Counted from the first letter of the stretch, positions 14,253-50,194 are shown. The stretch is DNA of 64,000 bases from an uncultured Gammaproteobacteria bacterium (GCA_964416445.1 CAYQEE010000001.1:131676-195675), one strand, 5' to 3'. Translations and numbers: made by a program. Notes: generated by a model not told the origin, from the sequence alone.

Positions 14253-15848
14253 TTATGCCTCGATAGCTTTTCCTGTTGTGCCAACAACGGCACCTCCTAA
14301 TACTCCGAGTATTGCAGCTGCCATTGCTAATAATGGATTCAATTTATCTTTATCGGGATCGTCACCTAAGGCTTTAATTTGTTCTCCTATTTGATTATAT
14401 TTTGCCATTAATTCATCGCGACTCATTTCAGTGAGCGGTTTTTCAGCGGCGGCAGGTTTATTTTCCTGAGCTATTTTTTTGTCGATTTGATTCCTCTGTT
14501 GTAAATTAGCTAATTCGTTTTGTTCATCAGTACTTAACGGAGTTTCTTGATCTTGTAATACTTTCATTCGGACTCTATCGTCATCAGATAAGGGAGTATG
14601 ATTCGCTCGTTCTTGCTGTCTGTCCTGATTAGTATTCGTTGCTGTTTCCTGAGCTGGTTCTTTCGCAGCTTTTGCTTCAAGTTGCATTTGTTGCCGTGCA
14701 TATCGTATCGCTTCTGCTCGAGCCTCTGCGAGATCTTCATCGTTTCGAGCCTGAACCATTCGTTGATTGAATTTATCGGTAAAATGACGGCTATTCATTG
14801 CTTGTTCATCAGAGATGACGACTCGTTTTTCCTGACCTGGCTCGCTTTGCGCTTGTTCTCGATGTTGTCTTCGGATTTCGTTAAACGCGCGTTGCCTTGC
14901 TACTTGTAATTCTGCAAAGGATACCTGATCTAATCGCACTCGTTCAGCAACAACCGGCAGTGGCTCGGTATTTTGCTGACCGTTCTCGCCAGAGAGATTT
15001 GGAAGTGCGTCAGTATGAACACCCTCACTCGTATCTGATGAAACGAGATGTAAGTTTACTGTTTCTCGCGCATTTGCTTTCGATCGTATTGAGTTTTGCT
15101 GTAAGTGTGCAAGTCTCTGTTCCTCAGCTCTTTTTTCAGCTCTCATGAGTGAAACCTGTTTGGCTACTTCATCTGCGAACTTTGGATCATTGTAGACATC
15201 CGCTGCCTCTTGCACTAACCCTTGCATCATATCTCGTCTGATTTGTTCTTCTTGAGCTCGAGAAGGCATATTTCCTGTATCTTCCATGATTTGTTCGATT
15301 CGTTGGGTAACTGCTTGGTTTAACTCTGAGCTGGTAAACGCTTGCGATCGAATATCTGCTTGTAATTGTTGTTCGTTATGTTGATTACGTTTTTGACGAA
15401 GACGACAAATATCAATTGCTTCTTTACGTGCATCTTTTCGCTCTTTGTCCGTTAATGTCCTTTTTGTTTCTCCTCGTTTCGCGTCAACAACGGACTTGAG
15501 TTCGGCAGCCACTTCAGCGCGATTGTTCCGAACAAATCGTCTATCTTGACCGGTCAATACTCGAACAGAATCAATTCGTACCACAGTTCGAGACCATTCT
15601 CGGGAAGTTCTTCCTTTCTGAAGCACCTCGCCGGTACGTAATTTTACTAAGCCTTCATGAGCATTTCCTGTATCACGGTCAGTGCGTAATCGCTTTGCAA
15701 CTTGTTGTGCCCACCATTGTTGTGCTTTTTCTTTGAATGAAGGACCTTGTTTTTCAGCAACCTTATCTTTGATTTCTTTTCGCTTGACGAGTTGTTCACT
15801 ACTCATTTGAGGTAGCGGTCGTAGTGGTGTTGGTGCATTATTTGGCAT
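14253..15848 (-). CDS. Hypothetical highly charged (R/E/Q/A-rich) coiled-coil protein with a C-terminal transmembrane anchor
   Basis: 531 aa of low complexity. The C-terminus 'LLAMAAAILGVLGGAVVGTTGKAIEA' is hydrophobic. Local GC is visibly higher than in the surrounding DNA. Confidence 0.55.
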   Translation of the reverse strand: MPNNAPTPLRPLPQMSSEQLVKRKEIKDKVAEKQGPSFKEKAQQWWAQQVAKRLRTDRDTGNAHEGLVKLRTGEVLQKGRTSREWSRTVVRIDSVRVLTGQDRRFVRNNRAEVAAELKSVVDAKRGETKRTLTDKERKDARKEAIDICRLRQKRNQHNEQQLQADIRSQAFTSSELNQAVTQRIEQIMEDTGNMPSRAQEEQIRRDMMQGLVQEAADVYNDPKFADEVAKQVSLMRAEKRAEEQRLAHLQQNSIRSKANARETVNLHLVSSDTSEGVHTDALPNLSGENGQQNTEPLPVVAERVRLDQVSFAELQVARQRAFNEIRRQHREQAQSEPGQEKRVVISDEQAMNSRHFTDKFNQRMVQARNDEDLAEARAEAIRYARQQMQLEAKAAKEPAQETATNTNQDRQQERANHTPLSDDDRVRMKVLQDQETPLSTDEQNELANLQQRNQIDKKIAQENKPAAAEKPLTEMSRDELMAKYNQIGEQIKALGDDPDKDKLNPLLAMAAAILGVLGGAVVGTTGKAIEA

Positions 15849-16441: not shown

Positions 16442-16933
16442 ATGAGGATGAACCAAAAAGTAGTTATTATCTTAATTACTGTTCTTGTGGCAATTATTAT
16501 AGCAGGAGGGGGATATTTTCTCTACGCGAAAAATCAGGGCAATCAACAGCAGCAACAAAACCAGTTACCAACACAATCAGCACAGCAATCAGGAAATATA
16601 CCAACATTATCACCTGATGATATAGGGCTTACGTTAAAGCAAAGTACGTCAGGTAAATTTGCGGGTCATGGGCTTGATATGACCATAACTAAGTTATCAG
16701 GAATATCAAATATTGATTGTCAATTCTCTTACACGGCACAAGGCAATTTACCCAGAGGTGGAATTTGTACCTCTGTATCGGTAAAACCTGGTGATACTAT
16801 TGTGCAACAGGAATATCCTTTTGGTACGTGTTCAGATGTCTGCCATTTTGATAGTGGGGTAAGCGATGTCAAAATGGTCCTAAAAATTACGAAGACGGAT
16901 GGAAATACCTATCAAGTTTCTGCATCGCTGTAA
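16442..16933 (+). CDS. Hypothetical membrane-anchored or secreted protein with a Gln-rich linker and 4 Cys
   Basis: An N-terminal TM or signal segment 'VVIILITVLVAIIIAGGGYFLYA', then a poly-Q stretch, then a Cys-containing beta-rich C-terminus. Confidence 0.5.
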   Translation: MRMNQKVVIILITVLVAIIIAGGGYFLYAKNQGNQQQQQNQLPTQSAQQSGNIPTLSPDDIGLTLKQSTSGKFAGHGLDMTITKLSGISNIDCQFSYTAQGNLPRGGICTSVSVKPGDTIVQQEYPFGTCSDVCHFDSGVSDVKMVLKITKTDGNTYQVSASL

Positions 16934-42236: not shown

Positions 42237-43241
42237 CTATTTTGGTAATACAATCGTAAAAGTCGAGCCCTTTCCTTCTTGAGAAGATACGGATACTTTT
42301 CCATGATGTTTTACGACTGCTGATTTGACAATTGCGAGTCCAAGTCCATAGCCTTTTGTCTCTCCGCGTGAAGTATCAACGCGGAAAAATCGGTCAAATA
42401 TTTTTTTTTGATTTTCTTTTGTAATACCAATTCCTGTGTCGTGAATAGAGACAACAATAGTATTTTTTGCATCAACTAATAGAATCGTTATTTTTCCGTA
42501 AGGAGGAGTGTACATAATTGCATTGTTGAGAAGATTATAAAATAATTGTCTCAGTAGAGTATAATGACCTCGTATCGTTGGGGGAGTAGCAATAGTGTCT
42601 TTTGTTGTAAAAGTAACAGCTAAATGTTTTTTCTTGCTCTTCAATAAAAGAGATTGATTAACCTCATAAATTAAATCAATGATATCAACATATTCTGTGT
42701 GCCGTACTGTATTGTTTTGGTCATTCTTTGCTAAAAAGAGTAAGTTTTTAATCAATTGAGATAATCTATCTGTTTCTTCTTTAATACTCACAAATGTTCT
42801 CTTATAATGATTAATAGCATGTTCTTTATGGAGTATTATTTCTATTTCACCGCTGATAATAGAAAGTGGTGTACGCATCTCGTGTGATACATCAGAAACA
42901 AATTGCTTTTGTTGTTCATAGATTATTTGAATTGGAGAAAGTGTTTGTTTCGCAAGGAAAAAAGATGCAATAGGAATAAGTACTAGAAGTCCCCCATTAA
43001 GAAAAATAAGAATAGTAGCTAGTTTATCGAGAGCAACATCCCCAGCAATGGTTATCATCTTGCTGTTTGTCTTTCCTACAATATCCTTCTCGGATCCTTG
43101 TTTTTGTTGTACCTGGCTAATATATCCTTCACCAACTGAGTTGTCCATCCAGGTATACAGACCAAAGCTAAATATCCAAAAAAGGAGTAAAAAAAGTAGT
43201 GAATAGAAAATAGTAAGTTTAATTTGTGCATGGTGAAACAT
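42237..43241 (-). CDS. Two-component sensor histidine kinase
   Basis: Two N-terminal TM helices. H-box 'VSHEMRTPLSIISGEIE'. HATPase G-box 'GYGLGLAIVKS'. Confidence 0.8.
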   Translation of the reverse strand: MFHHAQIKLTIFYSLLFLLLFWIFSFGLYTWMDNSVGEGYISQVQQKQGSEKDIVGKTNSKMITIAGDVALDKLATILIFLNGGLLVLIPIASFFLAKQTLSPIQIIYEQQKQFVSDVSHEMRTPLSIISGEIEIILHKEHAINHYKRTFVSIKEETDRLSQLIKNLLFLAKNDQNNTVRHTEYVDIIDLIYEVNQSLLLKSKKKHLAVTFTTKDTIATPPTIRGHYTLLRQLFYNLLNNAIMYTPPYGKITILLVDAKNTIVVSIHDTGIGITKENQKKIFDRFFRVDTSRGETKGYGLGLAIVKSAVVKHHGKVSVSSQEGKGSTFTIVLPK

Positions 43242-43242
43242 G

Positions 43243-43916
43243 TTATGTTACTTTCATAATATAACCTGAGCCTCGCATCGTATAAATTAACTCTTTATCT
43301 TGTGATTTTGTTTGTAATTTTTTACGAAGATATTTCACATAGGTTTCTACAATATTGGAAAGTCCTTGATAATTATAATCCCAGACATGTTCTAATAGTT
43401 CAGTTTTTGTAATAACTTGATTTACGTGACGCATGAAATATTCAAGCAGTGCATATTCTCGTGTCGTCAAAATAATAGTCTTATTTCCTCTTTTTGCCAT
43501 TCGCGTTGCGGGGTCTAGGGTGAGTGTATCAATTTTCAGAAGCACAGGATCAGCTTTTTTACCTCGTCTTATCAGAGCTCTAATTCTTGCAGAAAGTTCT
43601 GAGAAGGCGAAGGGTTTTGTTAAATAGTCATCTCCGCCCGCATCGAGTCCTGTTACACGATCTTCAATTGCGTCTTTTGCTGTAAGCATAAGAATGGGAA
43701 TATGTGTGTTTTTGGTTCGAATAGATCGACAAACATACATACCGTCACCATGTGGTAACATAATATCGAGTATAATACAATCATAATTGTTTATTGCGAA
43801 TTTATATAAGCTTCTTCACCAGAGGATGCAATATCAACCACATAGCTTTCTTCCATAAGGCCACGTCTAATAAATTTTGCGATTTTTACTTCATCTTCAG
43901 CTATCAATATTTGCAT
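43243..43916 (-). pseudogene. OmpR-family response regulator interrupted by an apparent single-base frameshift inside the receiver domain, near 43790-43800. It may be a pseudogene or a sequencing indel
   Basis: The upstream piece (43791-43916) reads 'MQILIAEDEVKIAKFIRRGLMEESYVVDIASSGEEAYINSQ*'. Upstream of the downstream ORF's ATG, its frame reads '...NNYDCIYLDIMLPHGDG' followed by 'LTAKD ... wHTH'. Together they form a complete receiver plus winged-helix domain. Confidence 0.5.
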
Positions 43917-43999
43917 TATGTTATAATAGCTCGAGGAACATGAAAATAAAATGAGAAATTCCCATGCTATTCTCATAATCAGGTTTCTATAATTTATTT

Positions 44000-44812
44000 A
44001 TGAATCTACTCAAAAACTGGCAGGGGAAAAAAACAGCAGCAATTGGTCGTAAAATTTTAAATAAGGTTCCAGAGGTTACTTTGTATTTTTGGTTAATTAA
44101 AATTTTATGCACCACTGTAGGTGAAACCGCAGCGGATTACCTTAATTCTACGTTGAATTTTGGTTTAACTGGAACGACAGTAATCATGAGCATCCTTTTT
44201 CTTATCACTCTCTTCTTTCAATTTCGATCGCGGAAATATATTCCTGGAATATATTGGCTCGCTGTTGTTTTGATTAGTGTTGTTGGTACCCTCATTACTG
44301 ATAATCTGACCGATAAGCTTGGTATCAGTTTGATAACAACGACCGTTGTTTTTGGAGTTATCCTGGGGTTAGTTTTTACAGTATGGTATAAATTTGAAAA
44401 GACCTTATCGATTCATACAATTTCAAAAATGCGTCGTGAAGGATTTTATTGGCTTGCTATTCTCTTTACATTTGCACTTGGAACTGCGGCCGGAGATCTT
44501 GCTGCAGAGCGACTCAATATCGGTTATTTGAATTCTGCAATCATGTTTGGTGCGTTGATTCTTGTCATAGCTATTGCACATATGCGGTTTAAATTACCGG
44601 CAGTTTTATCCTTCTGGCTTGCATATATCTTAACCCGTCCTCTTGGAGCGTCAATTGGGGATTATTTATCACAGCCTCGTGAAAATGGTGGGTTAAGTTT
44701 AGGGACCGTAACTACCAGCGGTATATTTCTATTTACCATTTTCGTCACGGTACTCTATCTTACCTTCACCAAAAAAGAAGCAGTTGCTACCAGTGAAGAG
44801 GCCCTTGGATAA
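44000..44812 (+). CDS. Hypothetical polytopic membrane protein
   Basis: 270 aa with about 7 TM helices and no recognised motif. Confidence 0.5.
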   Translation: MNLLKNWQGKKTAAIGRKILNKVPEVTLYFWLIKILCTTVGETAADYLNSTLNFGLTGTTVIMSILFLITLFFQFRSRKYIPGIYWLAVVLISVVGTLITDNLTDKLGISLITTTVVFGVILGLVFTVWYKFEKTLSIHTISKMRREGFYWLAILFTFALGTAAGDLAAERLNIGYLNSAIMFGALILVIAIAHMRFKLPAVLSFWLAYILTRPLGASIGDYLSQPRENGGLSLGTVTTSGIFLFTIFVTVLYLTFTKKEAVATSEEALG

Positions 44813-45003
44813 CAAAGAGAAAAAATTATTTACCCAGTCTTACCCTTTATATTCAATACTTGCTTGATATAGCTTGCTTCGTTATAAAGAATATTATGTA
44901 ATATTTGCGCATATATGAAAAAATATCGTTTTGTCAAAGAAATATTACCACTATATACTTTAATTTCTTTAGTGGCTGTTGTAGAGTAATAGTATACCGT
45001 GAC

Positions 45004-46479
45004 ATGAAACATGCAAATCGTAAGCGCAAGAAAAAAAATCAAGGAATGAAGCTTTCTCTTTTACTCAGTATCATTTTGTTATTTTTTCTCTGTTTAGCGT
45101 TAACTATTGCTTTATTCTTCCTACAACTTCCACAAGATATTCGTCAACATGCTGCTGGGCCAACAACATATGGTACGTGTAGTGGTTCAAGCCCTTCGCA
45201 GAGTGGTAATTGTTACGCTACGCCCAATTCGTGTGCCTCGCAAGGGTTAACTCAATACTATTCATCATTTGTTCCCCAGATCACCCAATGTGGACAACAA
45301 GCATACCTTGCAGGCGTAACTGCTGGTACATCGGTTAGCTGTTGCCCGAATCAACCGAACGGCTATCCCAACTCCTACGGATCTTGTGGAGCAACAAACC
45401 AAGGTACCTGTACGAGCAGTGCTTGTGTTGGAACGCCACTATATACTGATACCGTTCCTACGCAATGTTCCTATAATGGTTCTCAGGCGGCATTAGCAGT
45501 TGGGACACAAATGTACTGTTGTTCATTACCACCAACGCCTACCCCAACTCCAACGATTGATCCGTGCTCAACATTACAGTTAAATCCCAATTGTGCTATA
45601 ACAGCGAACAAGAGCGGTAATTTTTGTGGCGGGAATGCTCCTCCGAGTAATTGTCAGTTAGGAGGTAATGCAAATACGCTGTATTCATGTCAATGTAATG
45701 CCCAAGGTAAGAACTGCGTGATGGTTAGTTCTCAGAATTGTGCACAATCACAAAATGGTGCGTGTATTGTCATTCCTGGTGGGGTAAACGCAGACCACTG
45801 TGGCACAGTTTCACCTCCTCCCGTTGCCGCAGCATTCTCGTTCAACCTTACTGGTATTGGACCAGGAGGAAATAAAAACCCGGGACGCAAAACGCGGACC
45901 TTTTTTCTCTATTTCTCTCCTCATCAATTTGCCAGTGCGTTACTTGCTCAAAATACGAATCAACGAGTGTTAGGTACCCAAGTGATCAAGGTTTCTGGCA
46001 CTGCGACCTATAATGCTTCAGCTGGAGGGTTTCAAGCTTCAAATATTTCCCTTGCTGCAGTTCCCGCGGGGCAATATGATGTAATTCTTCATGTCGATGG
46101 ATCACTCGATAAATTTTTACAACCTATTGGCGGCGCACCATATTTTACTATTACGAATGGTCAGCCAATTACGCCGAGTTCAGTTTCTCTTTCAGGAGGA
46201 GATATTGCCCCTCCTCCTTCAGGTGATAATTTTGTTGATATTCAAGATTATAATGCGCTGATTACCTGTATGAACAATGTCAATTGTGCAAATAAAACAT
46301 TAGCAGATATTAATGATGATGGAATTGTAGATGGAACAGATTTACAGCTTCTCCTGCAGTCTTTTGGTCAGTTGGGTGATAGTTTTAGTAGTCCCTTATT
46401 CGGTTGTGTTCTTGACCCAAATTGTAAAACGGGGGGAGGTACGATACAATTTTGTCAGTTGGTTTGTAAAATACAATGA
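45004..46479 (+). CDS. Cys-rich secreted protein with a Pro-Thr linker and a C-terminal dockerin-like domain; start at the ATG at 45004
   Basis: Signal/TM 'LSLLLSIILLFFLCLALTIALFF', many Cys, and 'PPTPTPTPTPTIDP'. The dockerin-type repeat is 'DINDDGIVDGTDLQLLLQSFGQ', with a weaker preceding repeat 'GDNFVDIQDYNALI'. Confidence 0.55.
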   Translation: MKHANRKRKKKNQGMKLSLLLSIILLFFLCLALTIALFFLQLPQDIRQHAAGPTTYGTCSGSSPSQSGNCYATPNSCASQGLTQYYSSFVPQITQCGQQAYLAGVTAGTSVSCCPNQPNGYPNSYGSCGATNQGTCTSSACVGTPLYTDTVPTQCSYNGSQAALAVGTQMYCCSLPPTPTPTPTIDPCSTLQLNPNCAITANKSGNFCGGNAPPSNCQLGGNANTLYSCQCNAQGKNCVMVSSQNCAQSQNGACIVIPGGVNADHCGTVSPPPVAAAFSFNLTGIGPGGNKNPGRKTRTFFLYFSPHQFASALLAQNTNQRVLGTQVIKVSGTATYNASAGGFQASNISLAAVPAGQYDVILHVDGSLDKFLQPIGGAPYFTITNGQPITPSSVSLSGGDIAPPPSGDNFVDIQDYNALITCMNNVNCANKTLADINDDGIVDGTDLQLLLQSFGQLGDSFSSPLFGCVLDPNCKTGGGTIQFCQLVCKIQ

Positions 46480-47042
46480 ACAATATGGTAATGAAAAAAT
46501 ATACTCCTCTTTTTATGGTAATTACCGTACTTGTGGCAATACTTATTTTTTTTATTATTCAAAAAAGCAGTCATGATATTTTTACAACTGCAATCGCGAC
46601 TCCCACACCGTATGTTGTTTCCGTAACACCTATTTCGCCAAACGCTGTTGCCACACTTTCATTAAAGCAGGAACAACAAAATACCGTAACAGTTCACATC
46701 GATAGTCAGAATAAGCCGGTTACTGCGGTACAACTCGCATTATCATACAATCCACAAGTATTATCTTCGGTTACCATAAACCCTGGTCAATTTTTTACAA
46801 ATCCTGTTGTGTTAAGTAATACTGTTGATCCACATAAGAAAATGATATTTTATGTGCTAGCGATTCGGCCAAATCAGCAGCCACCAACAGGGATAGGTGA
46901 TCTCGCAACGATTACCTATACCGTTAATTTTGGTGTTGCTAGCACTATTTCCTTAGAATTTTTGCCTCAAACGAAGATAACAGAACTTGGTATAGAAGAA
47001 TCAATATTGAAAAGAGCAACAGGAATTGAAATTCCAATATAA
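46476..47042 (+). CDS. Membrane-anchored cohesin-like domain protein
   Basis: An N-terminal TM helix, a Pro/Thr linker, then 'VTAVQLALSYNPQVLSSVTINPGQFF', which resembles the cohesin YDPxxLE core. It overlaps the dockerin gene by 4 nt. Confidence 0.45.
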   Translation: MNNMVMKKYTPLFMVITVLVAILIFFIIQKSSHDIFTTAIATPTPYVVSVTPISPNAVATLSLKQEQQNTVTVHIDSQNKPVTAVQLALSYNPQVLSSVTINPGQFFTNPVVLSNTVDPHKKMIFYVLAIRPNQQPPTGIGDLATITYTVNFGVASTISLEFLPQTKITELGIEESILKRATGIEIPI

Positions 47043-49584: not shown

Positions 49585-49779
49585 ATGACAAAAGTTACGA
49601 ATCAAAAAACGTTGCCGTTTAACTTTAATCCTGATCGGTATGTTGGATTTTGTCGAATATGTGGCAGAGAAGTTACCAAACGGGTTGCAGAGTTTTCGCA
49701 GAAAACATATGGTCTGATTCAGTGTTATTCTTGCCAGCGAAAAGGAGGAAAAAACTATGGTAGATCAAAAAGCCGTTGA
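49585..49779 (+). CDS. Small zinc-ribbon protein
   Basis: CxxC ... CxxC: 'FCRICGREV ... QCYSCQRKG'. Confidence 0.4.
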   Translation: MTKVTNQKTLPFNFNPDRYVGFCRICGREVTKRVAEFSQKTYGLIQCYSCQRKGGKNYGRSKSR

Positions 49780-50194
49780 TACGAAAAAACAAACTAAAAC
49801 GATTGAAGAAAAAATCAAAGAAGTAAATGAAATCTTAACGAAAGGTGAACCAGGAAATATTAGTGTTGATACGTACTCAGGTTATTCTGGATATAAGCCG
49901 CAATTTATTATTGATGCAATGAATGCGATATTTGGTATTGGAGGATGGGGTTTTGAAGAGCTTTCAAGTAGTTTAGAAGGCGGTGTTGAAGGAAAGAATG
50001 CAACAATGGCTGTTGGTCAAGTGAAAGTATGGATTAAAGGAGTAGAATTTGCCCCTGTTGGTTGGGGGCAAAGTAGAATTACGAAAGGTGATATTGGTGA
50101 TGCGAAAAAAGGTGCTCAAACTGATGCAATAAAAAAAGCACTTTCTTATTTTTCAATTGGAAATAGAGCATATCATGGTCTTCTGAAGGGATAA
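49757..50194 (+). CDS. Rad52/Rad22-family single-strand annealing protein
   Basis: 'YKPQFIIDAMNAIFGIGGWGFEEL' matches the Rad52 '[22 protein letters not shown]' motif. 'AKKGAQTDAIKKALSYFSIGNRAYHG' matches '[23 protein letters not shown]'. Confidence 0.65.
   Translation: MVDQKAVDTKKQTKTIEEKIKEVNEILTKGEPGNISVDTYSGYSGYKPQFIIDAMNAIFGIGGWGFEELSSSLEGGVEGKNATMAVGQVKVWIKGVEFAPVGWGQSRITKGDIGDAKKGAQTDAIKKALSYFSIGNRAYHGLLKG

What the first reader, a model, noticed from the sequence alone, without database searches (positions are those of the whole stretch)
45004..47042. Operonic dockerin/cohesin-like pair suggesting a cell-surface anchoring module
Gene 1 encodes a signal-anchored, Cys-rich protein of about 40 Cys, Thr/Ser/Gly-rich, with a 'PPTPTPTPTPT' linker. 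Its C-terminus carries a canonical dockerin calcium-binding repeat, 'DINDDGIVDGTDLQLLLQSFGQ', preceded by a degenerate repeat.

Gene 2 overlaps gene 1 by 4 nt. It has an N-terminal TM anchor, a short Pro/Thr linker and a ~120-aa beta-rich domain containing 'VQLALSYNPQVLSSVTINPGQFF', similar to the cohesin 'xxLxYDPxxLE' core.

A membrane-anchored cohesin presenting a dockerin-bearing Cys-rich protein would be a non-cellulosomal surface-display system. That is plausible for an episymbiotic lifestyle.
Basis: partly seen in the sequence, partly recalled or inferred. Interest (0 to 1): 0.6.

Follow-up and report, generated by a model that had tools for sequence, protein, structure and literature searches.

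The report
Membrane-anchored cohesin with dockerin-tagged partner
Two adjacent genes encode a membrane-tethered cohesin "socket" and a secreted cysteine-rich protein ending in a dockerin "plug"; this known protein-docking pair is here apparently used to hold a surface protein on a tiny uncultured bacterium rather than to build a cellulose-degrading machine.

Summary
Gene 1 (45004-46479, 491 aa) ends in a dockerin that just passes Pfam's cut-off. Gene 2 (46476-47042, 188 aa) is an N-terminal membrane helix, a Pro/Thr linker and one cohesin domain. Pfam and a confident structure model whose top 50 PDB matches are all cohesins support this.

New here: gene 2 belongs to a large undescribed family of about 200-aa membrane-anchored single cohesins (761 clusters at E<1e-10). 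In 10 of 11 related loci, and 35 of 50 assessable metagenome loci, the neighbouring same-strand gene ends in the same roughly 170-aa module. That module is an Ig-like domain plus a dockerin with a conserved Cys pair. As a profile it best matches the X-module/type II dockerin of clostridial scaffoldins (E 1.5e-11), the module used for cell-surface attachment. The N-terminal parts of these partner proteins are unrelated to each other and include no glycoside hydrolase.

The most likely function is non-covalent, probably Ca2+-dependent tethering of variable surface proteins to the membrane. Binding itself is inferred, not shown.

Corrections: 29 Cys, not about 40. The first Ca2+ loop is degenerate. 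The cohesin fold resembles type I more than type II. It is a new architectural variant of a known system, of moderate interest.

The parts
44931..44959 (+). Promoter-like site upstream of gene 1 (TTGTCA-17-TATACT)
   Evidence: Consensus scan gave 10 of 12 matches. This is a pattern match only, and the count of such sites in the region is not above the shuffled expectation.
45004..46479 (+). Gene 1: a 491-aa secreted or signal-anchored, Cys-rich protein with a C-terminal Ig-like module and dockerin
   Evidence: ORF list. An identical 491-aa public gene call exists as P0003. Composition is 29 Cys, no Glu and no Trp.
45004..45123 (+). Gene 1 residues 1-40: basic N-terminus followed by a hydrophobic helix of about 24 residues (signal peptide or signal anchor)
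   Evidence: Hydropathy maximum is 3.05 at residue 19. Whether it is cleaved is not known.
45133..45153 (+). Gene 1 residues 44-50, 'QDIRQHA': a divergent copy of a lineage-specific motif directly after the N-terminal helix
   Evidence: The motif Q(D/E)(I/V)RQ(R/H)A was found in 6 dockerin-bearing neighbours of related loci. A broader pattern matched 10 of 30 complete partner ORFs and 7 other ORFs in the metagenome loci.
45166..45531 (+). Gene 1 residues 55-176: two tandem Cys-rich repeats of about 58 aa, each ending in CC
   Evidence: The two halves align at 35% identity over 54 aa. No homologue was found elsewhere.
45529..45555 (+). Gene 1 residues 176-184: PPTPTPTPT linker
   Evidence: Read directly from the translation.
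45562..45801 (+). Gene 1 residues 187-266: a third Cys-rich segment (10 Cys), with no homologue found
   Evidence: Cys positions. No family hit and no homologue.
45823..46197 (+). Gene 1 residues about 274-398: Ig-like beta module preceding the dockerin (X-module-like)
   Evidence: BLASTP to P0004 gives E 9e-14 over residues 316-453, and to the L001 neighbour E 9e-11. The leave-one-out family profile aligns residues 317-454. The family profile aligns through the X-module of 2b59_B. The N-terminal boundary is approximate.
46198..46380 (+). Gene 1 residues 399-459: dockerin. Loop 1 is degenerate (GDIAPPPSGDNFVDIQD, a 4-aa insertion). Cys422 and Cys428 lie in the linker. Loop 2 is canonical (D435, N437, D439, D443, D446).
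   Evidence: Pfam Dockerin_1 at 23.2 bits against a cut-off of 22.9. All 9 single-sequence PDB hits are dockerins, aligned through repeat 2 in the alignments printed. G399, D400, D415, C422, C428, D435 and D446 are at least 90% conserved in 46 family members.
46381..46476 (+). Gene 1 residues 460-491: Cys-rich tail (4 Cys) beyond the usual family C-terminus '...GD'
   Evidence: Alignment A5. Six of the 8 aligned sequences end at or just before 'GD'; only the window protein and L001 continue into a Cys-containing tail.
46476..47042 (+). Gene 2: a 188-aa membrane-anchored single-cohesin protein
   Evidence: ORF list. Pfam Cohesin at 35.3 bits. The family profile built without it scores 186.7 bits.
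46503..46562 (+). Gene 2 residues 10-29: transmembrane helix, with Lys-Lys on the N-terminal side
   Evidence: The AlphaFold model has helix 10-29 at pLDDT about 90. Hydropathy is 2.93. A hydrophobic segment upstream of the cohesin core is present in 145 of 149 family representatives.
46563..46658 (+). Gene 2 residues 30-61: Pro/Thr/Ser/Val-rich linker, low model confidence
   Evidence: Residues 36-41 and 55-61 have pLDDT below 50. The sequence includes ATPTPYVVSVTPISP.
46659..47039 (+). Gene 2 residues 62-188: cohesin beta-sandwich
   Evidence: Pfam matches residues 64-157. Model pLDDT over the domain is 92-98 from residue 71 on. Foldseek against PDB gave 81 hits at E<=1e-3, and the top 50 are all cohesins, with target-normalised TM-score up to 0.78. 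All 15 family-profile hits in PDB are cohesins.

Best explanation
The two genes form one transcription unit encoding a two-part surface-tethering device.

Gene 2 makes a bitopic membrane protein. It has a short basic cytoplasmic N-terminus, one transmembrane helix (residues 10-29), a flexible Pro/Thr linker of about 30 residues, and a single cohesin beta-sandwich facing outward.

Gene 1 makes an exported modular protein. It has an N-terminal export helix followed by a lineage-specific QDIRQHA motif. Next come three cysteine-rich segments with no homologue found, which form the variable functional end and are possibly an adhesin. These are followed by an Ig-like X-type module and a C-terminal dockerin.

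Outside the cell, the dockerin would bind the cohesin non-covalently and probably in a Ca2+-dependent way. Contact would be mainly through its intact second Ca2+-loop/helix, with the Ig-like module buttressing the contact as in type II X-dockerins. The gene 1 product is thereby held on the cell membrane.

Shown: domain identities, the cohesin fold, the membrane-helix prediction, tight gene coupling, conserved adjacency of the two module types with swapped N-terminal parts, and absence of carbohydrate-active enzyme domains.

Inferred: outward topology, cleavage of gene 1's signal, Ca2+ dependence, the binding itself, and the biological role of the Cys-rich part.
For: Domain identity:
- Pfam Cohesin at 35.3 bits and Dockerin_1 at 23.2 bits, both above the curated cut-offs.
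- Cohesin model has pLDDT 85. Its top 50 PDB matches are all cohesins, including cell-surface and non-cellulosomal ones.
- All 15 hits of the cohesin family profile in PDB are cohesins.
- The profile of the C-terminal module of 8 partner proteins hits X-module plus type II dockerin chains best: 2b59_B at E 1.5e-11, then 3kcp_A, 5g5d_B, 4wi0_B and 4u3s_B, with the alignment running through part of the X-module and both dockerin segments. Free type I dockerins come next.
- Gene 1 scores 76.3 bits against that profile when it is left out of the build.

Functional linkage:
- The stop and start codons overlap, or lie at most 11 nt apart, with no terminator-like site between the genes.
- Gene 2 belongs to a family of 761 clusters at E<1e-10 (1708 at E<=1e-3). 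Of 149 representatives examined, the median length is 201 aa and 145 have a hydrophobic N-terminal segment.
- In 10 of 11 distinct loci fetched by protein identity, a same-strand neighbour ends in the same module.
- In an independent metagenome scan, 33 of 50 assessable cohesin genes have such a gene directly upstream and 2 more have it directly downstream. There were 41 such ORFs in 370 kb of cohesin loci and none in 284 kb of the 47 scanned loci without a cohesin hit.
- N-terminal parts of the partners are unrelated to each other: von Willebrand A (VWA) plus SdrD_B, NPCBM_assoc, a metallophosphoesterase, and Cys-rich proteins with no homologue. This is the pattern expected of interchangeable cargo on a common plug.
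Against: - No binding test of any kind was possible.
- A crude co-evolution test on 9 pairs found no correlation between cohesin and neighbouring-dockerin similarity (r 0.10, Mantel p 0.32).
- Gene 1's first Ca2+ loop has a 4-residue insertion and has lost the position-1 ligand. Pfam's dockerin score is only 0.3 bits above the cut-off.
- Gene 1 has its own long N-terminal hydrophobic helix. If uncleaved, it would already anchor the protein and make a second tether less obviously needed.
- Between 15 of 50 metagenome loci and 1 of 11 fetched loci have a cohesin gene with no detectable partner next to it.
- The cohesin linker is short, about 30 residues. The cohesin would therefore sit close to the membrane, possibly beneath any cell wall.
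Confidence: 0.62

Rival explanations
1. Both products stay in the membrane. Gene 1's N-terminal helix is an uncleaved anchor, so the cohesin-dockerin contact acts in cis. It would pin the C-terminus of an already anchored protein back to the membrane, or link neighbouring molecules into a surface lattice, rather than serve as the sole tether.
For: Gene 1's hydrophobic segment is about 24 residues long, which is long for a cleaved signal peptide, and no classical Ala-x-Ala site follows it. The conserved motif after the helix could be a retention or recognition signal rather than a cleavage signal. Two partner proteins, P0004 (L002) and the L018 556-aa protein, have N-terminal stretches that look cohesin-like by eye; Pfam reported no cohesin for either.
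Against: Three partner proteins (L009, L013/L014, L019) have ordinary short cleavable-looking signal peptides ending in Ala. These still carry the same C-terminal module, which argues that the plug is what retains them. The motif ends in small residues (RA-A/G/S/T) compatible with cleavage.
Confidence: 0.17
2. The two modules are genuine but not cognate. Gene 1's dockerin binds a different cohesin encoded elsewhere in the genome or on another cell, and gene 2's cohesin receives other dockerin proteins. Adjacency would then reflect only co-regulation of surface genes.
For: No co-evolution signal was found. Some cohesin genes lack a neighbouring partner. Some loci have two or three dockerin genes beside one cohesin (L006; L032, L112 and L133). 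A 2276-aa relative, P0006, carries nine cohesins and a dockerin, which shows that more complex networks exist. Type II pairs are reported to be cross-reactive (PMC12484212).
Against: Adjacency on the same strand holds in about 70-90% of loci despite complete turnover of the cargo. Only one cohesin and one dockerin occur in this 64-kb window. The start and stop codons overlap.
Confidence: 0.14
3. It is a minimal cellulosome: a device for assembling polysaccharide-degrading enzymes, as earlier genome papers assumed for dockerin and 'cellulosome anchoring' genes in candidate phyla.
For: The domain families are the cellulosomal ones. Kantor et al. 2013 (PMC3812714) read dockerin-like and cellulosome-anchoring or cellulosome-related genes in candidate-phylum SR1 and OD1 genomes as evidence for complex carbon degradation. 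NPCBM_assoc domains occur in a few partners.
Against: Gene 1 has no catalytic or carbohydrate-binding domain hit even at E<=10. None of the 46 partner proteins scanned hits a glycoside hydrolase, polysaccharide lyase or CBM3 family. There is one cohesin per protein and no scaffoldin in the window.
Confidence: 0.03
4. The dockerin call is spurious. The DINDDG loop would be a lone EF-hand-like Ca2+ loop in some other fold, and the cohesin-like gene an unrelated beta-sandwich.
For: Pfam's dockerin score is marginal, at 23.2 against a cut-off of 22.9. The single-sequence PDB hits use the second repeat in the alignments printed. A shallow two-sequence cohesin model gave no cohesin match.
Against: The family profile hits X-dockerin structures at E 1.5e-11 over both segments. 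The leave-one-out score is 76 bits. Positions 1 and 12 of both loops are at least 90% conserved in 46 relatives. The deep-alignment cohesin model matches solved cohesins exclusively among its top 50 hits.
Confidence: 0.02

Closest known systems
Type II cohesin / X-module-dockerin complex of Clostridium thermocellum (CipA XDoc bound to SdbA cohesin; PDB 2b59, 3kcp) and of Acetivibrio cellulolyticus (4u3s, 4wi0)
   Same: An Ig-like module immediately precedes a C-terminal two-segment dockerin, and a cohesin on a cell-surface protein receives it. The role is attachment to the cell rather than enzyme recruitment. This is the best sequence match of the partner-module profile (E 1.5e-11). Type II cohesins are among the profile hits of the cohesin family.
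   Different: - The receiving cohesin here is held by an N-terminal membrane helix, not by C-terminal S-layer-homology modules or sortase. Those are the two mechanisms listed in the 2025 review PMC12484212.
- Its predicted fold is compact and closer to type I cohesins: target-normalised TM-score 0.70-0.78 against 0.50-0.64 for type II. The model shows no helix in the domain.
- The cargo is a Cys-rich protein with no homologue, not an enzyme-laden scaffoldin.
- The dockerin linker carries a conserved Cys pair, and loop 1 of gene 1 is degenerate.
Ruminococcus flavefaciens ScaE anchoring cohesin with X-dockerin partners (type III; ScaE described in PMC12484212; CttA and the type III X-dockerin from my own knowledge)
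   Same: A protein with a single cohesin is fixed to the cell envelope. It receives X-dockerin modules of several different proteins, including a non-enzymatic adhesion protein. This is the closest functional analogy.
   Different: ScaE is linked covalently to peptidoglycan by sortase. Ruminococcal type III dockerins lack the second canonical Ca2+ loop, whereas here the first loop is the degenerate one. No direct sequence or structure comparison placed this pair in type III; R. flavefaciens cohesins rank lower.
Non-cellulosomal cohesins and dockerins (Archaeoglobus fulgidus cohesin 2xdh; Clostridium perfringens cohesin-like module 2jh2)
   Same: These are cohesin and dockerin modules in organisms and proteins unconnected with cellulose breakdown. 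Both structures are significant fold matches to the model: 2xdh at E 6.8e-7 with TMt 0.75, and 2jh2 at E 1.2e-5.
   Different: Those examples are not, to my knowledge, membrane-helix-anchored single cohesins encoded next to their presumed partner. No X-type module plus Cys-stapled dockerin has been described for them.
Dockerin and 'cellulosome anchoring' genes noted in candidate-phyla genomes (Kantor et al. 2013, PMC3812714; essential dockerin-domain envelope protein SEML1_0315 in a Saccharibacterium, Wang et al. 2023, PMC10633639)
   Same: Earlier workers saw the same domain families in the same broad group of small-genome bacteria.
   Different: The domains were mentioned only in passing. 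They were read as carbohydrate degradation or glycan targeting. No membrane-anchored cohesin family, conserved gene pairing or X-type module was reported in the papers found.

Membership tests
Cohesin domain (Pfam PF00963) | Sequence match above the curated family threshold | tested here: met
   Score 35.3 bits against a cut-off of 24.1, E 1.6e-8, residues 64-157. Of 60 family members scanned, 56 also match.
Cohesin domain (Pfam PF00963) | Nine-stranded flattened beta-sandwich (jelly-roll) fold like solved cohesins | tested here: met
   The deep-alignment AlphaFold model has pLDDT 85, and 92-98 over the domain from residue 71 on. Foldseek against PDB gave 81 hits at E<=1e-3, and the top 50 are all cohesins. 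The best is 1aoh_A, with target-normalised TM-score 0.78 and rmsd 2.8 A.
Cohesin domain (Pfam PF00963) | Binds a dockerin | not testable with these tools
   No complex prediction or experiment was available. The claim is inferred from conserved adjacency.
Dockerin (Pfam PF00404) | Sequence match above the curated family threshold | tested here: met
   Score 23.2 bits against a cut-off of 22.9, which is marginal; residues 407-450. All 9 single-sequence PDB hits are dockerins. The leave-one-out family profile scores 76.3 bits.
Dockerin (Pfam PF00404) | Two duplicated segments, each a 12-residue Ca2+-binding loop (ligands at positions 1, 3, 5, 9, 12) followed by a helix | tested here: inconclusive
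   Segment 2 is canonical: D435, N437, D439, D443, D446. Segment 1 keeps positions 5, 9 and 12 (D408, D412, D415), but a 4-residue insertion (PPPS) puts Pro and Ser at positions 1 and 3. Most relatives have a canonical first loop.
Dockerin (Pfam PF00404) | Ca2+-dependent folding and binding | not testable with these tools
   Requires experiment.
Type II X-module-dockerin dyad | Ig-like X module directly N-terminal to the dockerin and homologous to that of solved XDoc structures | tested here: met
   The profile of 8 partner modules hits 2b59_B at E 1.5e-11, aligned over profile positions 53-165 and chain residues 50-155. This covers the last X-module strands plus the dockerin. Gene 1 aligns to the leave-one-out profile over residues 317-454. 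The fold of gene 1's module was not modelled.
Type II cohesin | Extra helix between strands 6 and 7 and two beta-flaps that distinguish type II from type I cohesins (recalled from the structural literature) | tested here: not met
   The model shows no helix within residues 62-188. It superposes better on type I cohesins (TMt 0.70-0.78) than on type II (0.50-0.64). By sequence profile both types are hit. I therefore do not file gene 2 as a type II cohesin.
Cellulosome | Dockerin-tagged carbohydrate-active enzymes | tested here: not met
   Gene 1 has no Pfam hit other than dockerin at E<=10. Among 46 partner proteins, none hits a glycoside hydrolase, lyase or esterase family.
Cellulosome | Scaffoldin with several cohesins and a cellulose-binding module | tested here: not met
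   The window holds one cohesin in a 188-aa protein and no other cohesin. A multi-cohesin relative exists elsewhere, P0006 with 9 cohesins, but it is not in this window.
Anchoring scaffoldins of known cellulosomes | Attachment by S-layer-homology modules or a sortase LPXTG signal (PMC12484212) | tested here: not met
   Gene 2 has no SLH hit and no LPXTG in its sequence. It ends directly after the cohesin. The only anchoring element is the N-terminal helix.

The most novel reading that the evidence does not exclude
The pair may be one instance of a general, lineage-wide surface-display system of Microgenomates-like candidate-phyla bacteria. In this reading, a membrane-helix-anchored cohesin socket receives interchangeable, fast-evolving ectodomains. 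Each ectodomain carries a common Cys-stapled X-dockerin plug. Many are exported through a lineage-specific N-terminal signal, (A)IPLTV..QQQQ(D/E)IRQRA. The system would stand in for sortase or S-layer anchoring and would present the adhesins through which these ultra-small cells attach to hosts or surfaces.
Probability: 0.3. Interest if true: 0.7.

Novelty: new variant of a known kind. Interest (0 to 1): 0.45.

Why it matters
Cohesin-dockerin docking is one of the strongest known non-covalent protein interactions. It is normally discussed as the assembly principle of cellulosomes.

This work points to a large family: at least 761 clusters at 50% identity. It occurs in uncultured bacteria, where labelled assigned to candidate phyla. 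The same plug-and-socket appears to be wired differently there. The socket is a membrane-helix-anchored single cohesin. The plug is an X-dockerin on the neighbouring gene. The cargo is variable and non-enzymatic.

If binding is confirmed, three things follow:
- It gives a concrete, testable handle on how these organisms display surface proteins. Their envelopes and host-attachment mechanisms are largely unknown.
- It corrects the habit of reading cohesin and dockerin annotations in such genomes as evidence for polysaccharide degradation.
- It offers new orthogonal cohesin-dockerin pairs for protein engineering.

For this particular window, the finding is a good example of the family rather than something unprecedented.

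Tried and rejected
- A two-sequence AlphaFold model of gene 2 (pLDDT 67.6) gave only insignificant jelly-roll matches and no cohesin. I discarded it in favour of the 85-sequence model.
- Word-indexed homologue searches with single proteins found almost nothing, 2 hits each. The family became visible only with the exhaustive profile search.
The 3-sequence alignment found only one genome locus, already known. The window's own genome is evidently not in that collection, so the organism could not be named.
- Cluster look-up gave no names or accessions for window proteins.
- A search for run and assembly accessions in the literature returned only irrelevant hits.
The last job went to the cohesin, so the X-module fold of gene 1 is unmodelled.
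- The AlphaFold-database fold library was unavailable.
- The mirror-tree test for cohesin/dockerin co-evolution on 9 pairs was negative or uninformative (r 0.10, p 0.32).
- BLAST of gene 1's Cys-rich region against other partners gave only low-complexity matches, run without composition correction. I did not accept these as homology.
- The weak NCBIfam hits (GC-type dockerin at E 0.01, SAG1386/EF1546 at E 0.018) are far below their cut-offs, and I did not use them.
- The weak second hit of the cohesin profile in the window (16442-16933) matches only the membrane helix and linker, not the cohesin.
- I rejected the cellulosome reading and the lone-EF-hand reading, as set out under the rival explanations.
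Full report
**1. What is in the sequence**

Two + strand ORFs occupy 45004-46479 (gene 1, 491 aa) and 46476-47042 (gene 2, 188 aa).
- Gene 1's ORF could start at a TTG at 44905. Public gene calls use the ATG at 45004, and a promoter-like hexamer pair lies at 44931-44959.
- Gene 1's stop (TGA, 46477-46479) overlaps gene 2's first ATG. Gene 2 also has ATGs at 46485 and 46491, and its family consensus begins 'MSKK'. The junction is therefore a 4-nt overlap or a gap of at most 11 nt.
- No terminator-like site separates the genes.
Gene 1 has 29 Cys, not about 40.
- Gene 1 contains no Glu and no Trp. Gene 2 contains no Cys and no Trp.

**2. Domain identity**

Pfam gives Dockerin_1 for gene 1 residues 407-450 (23.2 bits, cut-off 22.9). 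It gives Cohesin for gene 2 residues 64-157 (35.3 bits, cut-off 24.1).

*Gene 2.*
- A first AlphaFold model from two sequences was poor and gave meaningless fold matches.
- A model from 85 family sequences reached pLDDT 85, and 92-98 across the domain from residue 71 on. It shows a helix at residues 10-29, a disordered linker and an all-beta domain.
- Its PDB matches number 81 at E<=1e-3, and the top 50 are all cohesins.
- The closest are compact type I cohesins (1aoh, 6kgc, 1ohz; target-normalised TM-score 0.70-0.78). Type II cohesins match less well (0.50-0.64).
- The non-cellulosomal cohesins 2xdh and 2jh2 are also hit.
- All 15 PDB hits of a 60-sequence family profile are cohesins.

*Gene 1.*
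- On its own, the C-terminal 221 residues hit only dockerins in PDB, through the second repeat in the alignments printed.
- Loop 2 is canonical (D435, N437, D439, D443, D446).
- Loop 1 keeps D408, D412 and D415 but has a PPPS insertion that removes the position-1 ligand.

**3. A family and a conserved partnership**

Word-indexed searches found almost no relatives. An exhaustive profile search found 1708 clusters at E<=1e-3 and 761 at E<1e-10.
- Almost all top hits are 180-230 aa and match over their full length.
- Of 149 representatives, 145 have a hydrophobic segment before the cohesin core, and 125 have no Cys.

I fetched ten further distinct loci by protein identity. In nine of them a same-strand neighbour, usually directly upstream, ends in the same C-terminal unit of about 170 aa as gene 1 (L001, L002, L006 with two such genes, L009, L013, L015 where it lies downstream, L017, L018, L019). 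L011 has none. With the window itself, that is 10 of 11.

The unit consists of:
- a beta module (G.Y.(V/L)K(V/I)....YL.+..PG);
- GD.N.DN.(L/V)(D/N)I.DYN..I.C;
- a linker ending in a second Cys;
- ADLNDDG.VD..D.NLF;
- usually a terminal ..VQ.GD.

In 46 sequences, G399, D400, D415, C422, C428, D435 and D446 (gene 1 numbering) are at least 90% conserved.

An independent scan of metagenome contigs used a back-translated cohesin core motif and gave 120 loci.
- 65 strong family cohesin ORFs were found.
- Of the 50 with at least 700 nt of upstream sequence, 33 have the partner module directly upstream and 2 have it only downstream.
- There were 41 partner ORFs in 370 kb of cohesin loci, against none in 284 kb of the 47 scanned loci without a cohesin hit.
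- That control is imperfect, because those loci come from other organisms.

Profiles built without the window sequences score gene 1 at 76.3 bits over residues 317-454 and gene 2 at 186.7 bits.

**4. What the partner module is**

The 8-sequence profile of the module matches X-module plus type II dockerin chains best: CipA XDoc 2b59_B at E 1.5e-11, then 3kcp_A, 5g5d_B, 4wi0_B and 4u3s_B. The alignment runs from the last strands of the X-module through both dockerin segments. Free type I dockerins follow.

The dockerin side therefore resembles the cell-surface-attachment type, which is the role of type II pairs according to PMC12484212. The cohesin's predicted shape is nearer type I. I do not file gene 2 as a type II cohesin.

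**5. Cargo**

The N-terminal parts of partner proteins are unrelated to each other.
- Gene 1 has two tandem Cys repeats of about 58 aa (35% identical), a PT linker and a 10-Cys segment. No homologue or family was found for any of these.
- Other partners carry VWA plus SdrD_B, NPCBM_assoc, a metallophosphoesterase, or nothing recognisable.
- In 46 partners, no glycoside hydrolase, lyase or CBM3 family is hit.

This argues against a cellulosome and for interchangeable surface proteins on a common plug.

**6. Mechanism proposed**

Gene 2's product sits in the membrane with its N-terminus inside (Lys-Lys before the helix) and presents one cohesin on a short flexible linker. Gene 1's product is exported, and its C-terminal X-dockerin plugs into the cohesin, probably with Ca2+. 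The Cys-rich ectodomain is thereby held at the cell surface. The coupled genes favour matched production.

- Shown: domains, fold, helix prediction, coupling, conserved adjacency, cargo turnover.
- Inferred: topology, signal cleavage, Ca2+ dependence, binding, biological role.

The main weaknesses are these:
- There is no binding evidence.
- The small co-evolution test was negative (r 0.10, p 0.32).
- Gene 1's first loop is degenerate.
- Gene 1's own long hydrophobic helix might stay in the membrane.

**7. Surroundings**

None of the neighbouring genes is conserved next to the pair in other loci (searches compared with 42-47, 68-70). They are:
- upstream and divergent, a histidine kinase and a frameshifted OmpR-type response regulator;
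- upstream on the same strand, a DUF347 membrane protein (44000-44812);
- downstream, a CBS-domain gene on the other strand and an amino-acid permease.

The conserved unit is the pair alone.

**8. Organism**

The organism is not identified.
- The window's genome is not in the species-representative collection, and cluster look-ups gave no names.
- One family member is labelled Candidatus Levybacteria. The closest locus is labelled Candidatus Paceibacterota.
- Several metagenome hits come from 0.1-0.2 um groundwater filtrates, judging by contig names.
- G+C content is about 36%.

A candidate-phyla (Patescibacteria) origin is likely but inferred.

**9. Comparison with what is known, and novelty**

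Cohesin and dockerin modules outside cellulosomes are established; solved examples 2xdh and 2jh2 appear. Genome papers on candidate phyla have mentioned dockerin and 'cellulosome anchoring' genes in passing, reading them as carbohydrate degradation or glycan targeting (PMC3812714; PMC10633639).

Full-text searches found no description of any of the following:
- a membrane-helix-anchored single-cohesin family;
- its conserved pairing with X-dockerin genes;
- the Cys-stapled dockerin.

The 2025 cellulosome review lists only sortase and S-layer-homology anchoring for cohesin-bearing anchor proteins (PMC12484212).

I therefore rate this a new architectural variant of a known system, not a new kind of system. 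Standard Pfam annotation would already label both genes.

**10. Verdict**

- Binding and the link to an episymbiotic lifestyle remain to be tested.
- Interest is moderate (0.45).

Noticed in passing
window 45133-45153 (gene 1 residues 44-50); also L002 1875-3023 and 3027-4661, L006 1138-3054 and 3078-4937, L015 5640-7613, L018 2193-3137 and 3176-4846, and 17 ORFs in metagenome loci L024-L133: A conserved motif sits directly after the N-terminal hydrophobic helix of many exported proteins in these loci. Its consensus is (A)IPLTV(F/Y)(I/V)(S/A)QQQQ(D/E)(I/T)RQRA(A/S/T), and gene 1 has the divergent form LQLPQDIRQHAAG. It occurs in 10 of 30 complete dockerin-partner ORFs and in 7 other ORFs of the same loci. 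It looks like a lineage-specific export or processing signal. I know of no description of it.
   Followed up: partly
window 43243-43976, minus strand: The OmpR-type response regulator next to the histidine kinase (42237-43241) is split into two reading frames. A 61-aa piece carries the start of the receiver domain. A 172-aa piece carries the rest of the receiver plus the DNA-binding domain. A one-base frameshift lies around 43785-43795, at 'CAATAAACAATTATGA'. The same split is called in two independent read-set assemblies (L003), so it is probably a real pseudogene or a recoding site rather than an assembly error.
   Followed up: partly
P0006 (2276 aa, JGI metagenome contig of 14,820 bp; not in the window): One relative found with the cohesin profile is a scaffoldin-like giant. 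It has an N-terminal membrane helix, nine cohesin domains, Big_7 and fibronectin-III domains, and a C-terminal dockerin. Multi-cohesin assemblies therefore also exist in this family.
   Followed up: partly
L002 1875-3023 (382 aa) and L018 2193-3137 (314 aa): A second kind of Cys-rich exported protein sits just upstream of the X-dockerin gene in two loci. Its C-terminus carries two copies of a different dockerin-like segment, for example 'GDANCDGRIDILDFNIWRDEF ... GDIIIDILDFNIWRNSM'. Pfam does not recognise it. It may be a second plug type.
   Followed up: no
L002 3027-4661 (P0004) and L018 3176-4846: These two X-dockerin proteins also have an N-terminal stretch that looks cohesin-like by eye, for example 'INGFDVVVNPQSGMDLL' and 'ISGFSGIISYNTNRNNVLELV'. 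Pfam did not report a cohesin for them. If real, they would be adaptor proteins carrying both plug and socket.
   Followed up: no
window 45004-46479 and 46476-47042: The amino-acid usage is unusual. Gene 1 (491 aa) has no Glu and no Trp at all but 29 Cys. Gene 2 has no Cys and no Trp. Across the families, 125 of 149 cohesin representatives have zero Cys, while the dockerin partners keep a conserved Cys pair in the inter-helix linker.
   Followed up: partly
window 46381-46476 (gene 1 residues 460-491); L001 1752-3317 C-terminus; L019 3205-4353: Gene 1 and its two closest relatives share a degenerate first Ca2+ loop, with an insertion in place of the usual N.DN. Two of them, the window and L001, extend beyond the family's usual '...GD' C-terminus with a short Cys-containing tail. 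This may mark a subfamily with a single binding mode.
   Followed up: partly
window 14253-15848, minus strand: This is a 531-aa, highly charged, Gln/Arg/Glu-rich low-complexity protein with a single C-terminal hydrophobic segment. It lies in the stretch with the most deviant composition of the window (G+C 0.41, AT skew -0.24).
   Followed up: no
window 49757-50194: A Rad52/Rad22-family single-strand annealing protein (Pfam E 1.3e-9) sits among housekeeping genes. This family is more usual in phages and eukaryotes than in bacterial chromosomes.
   Followed up: no
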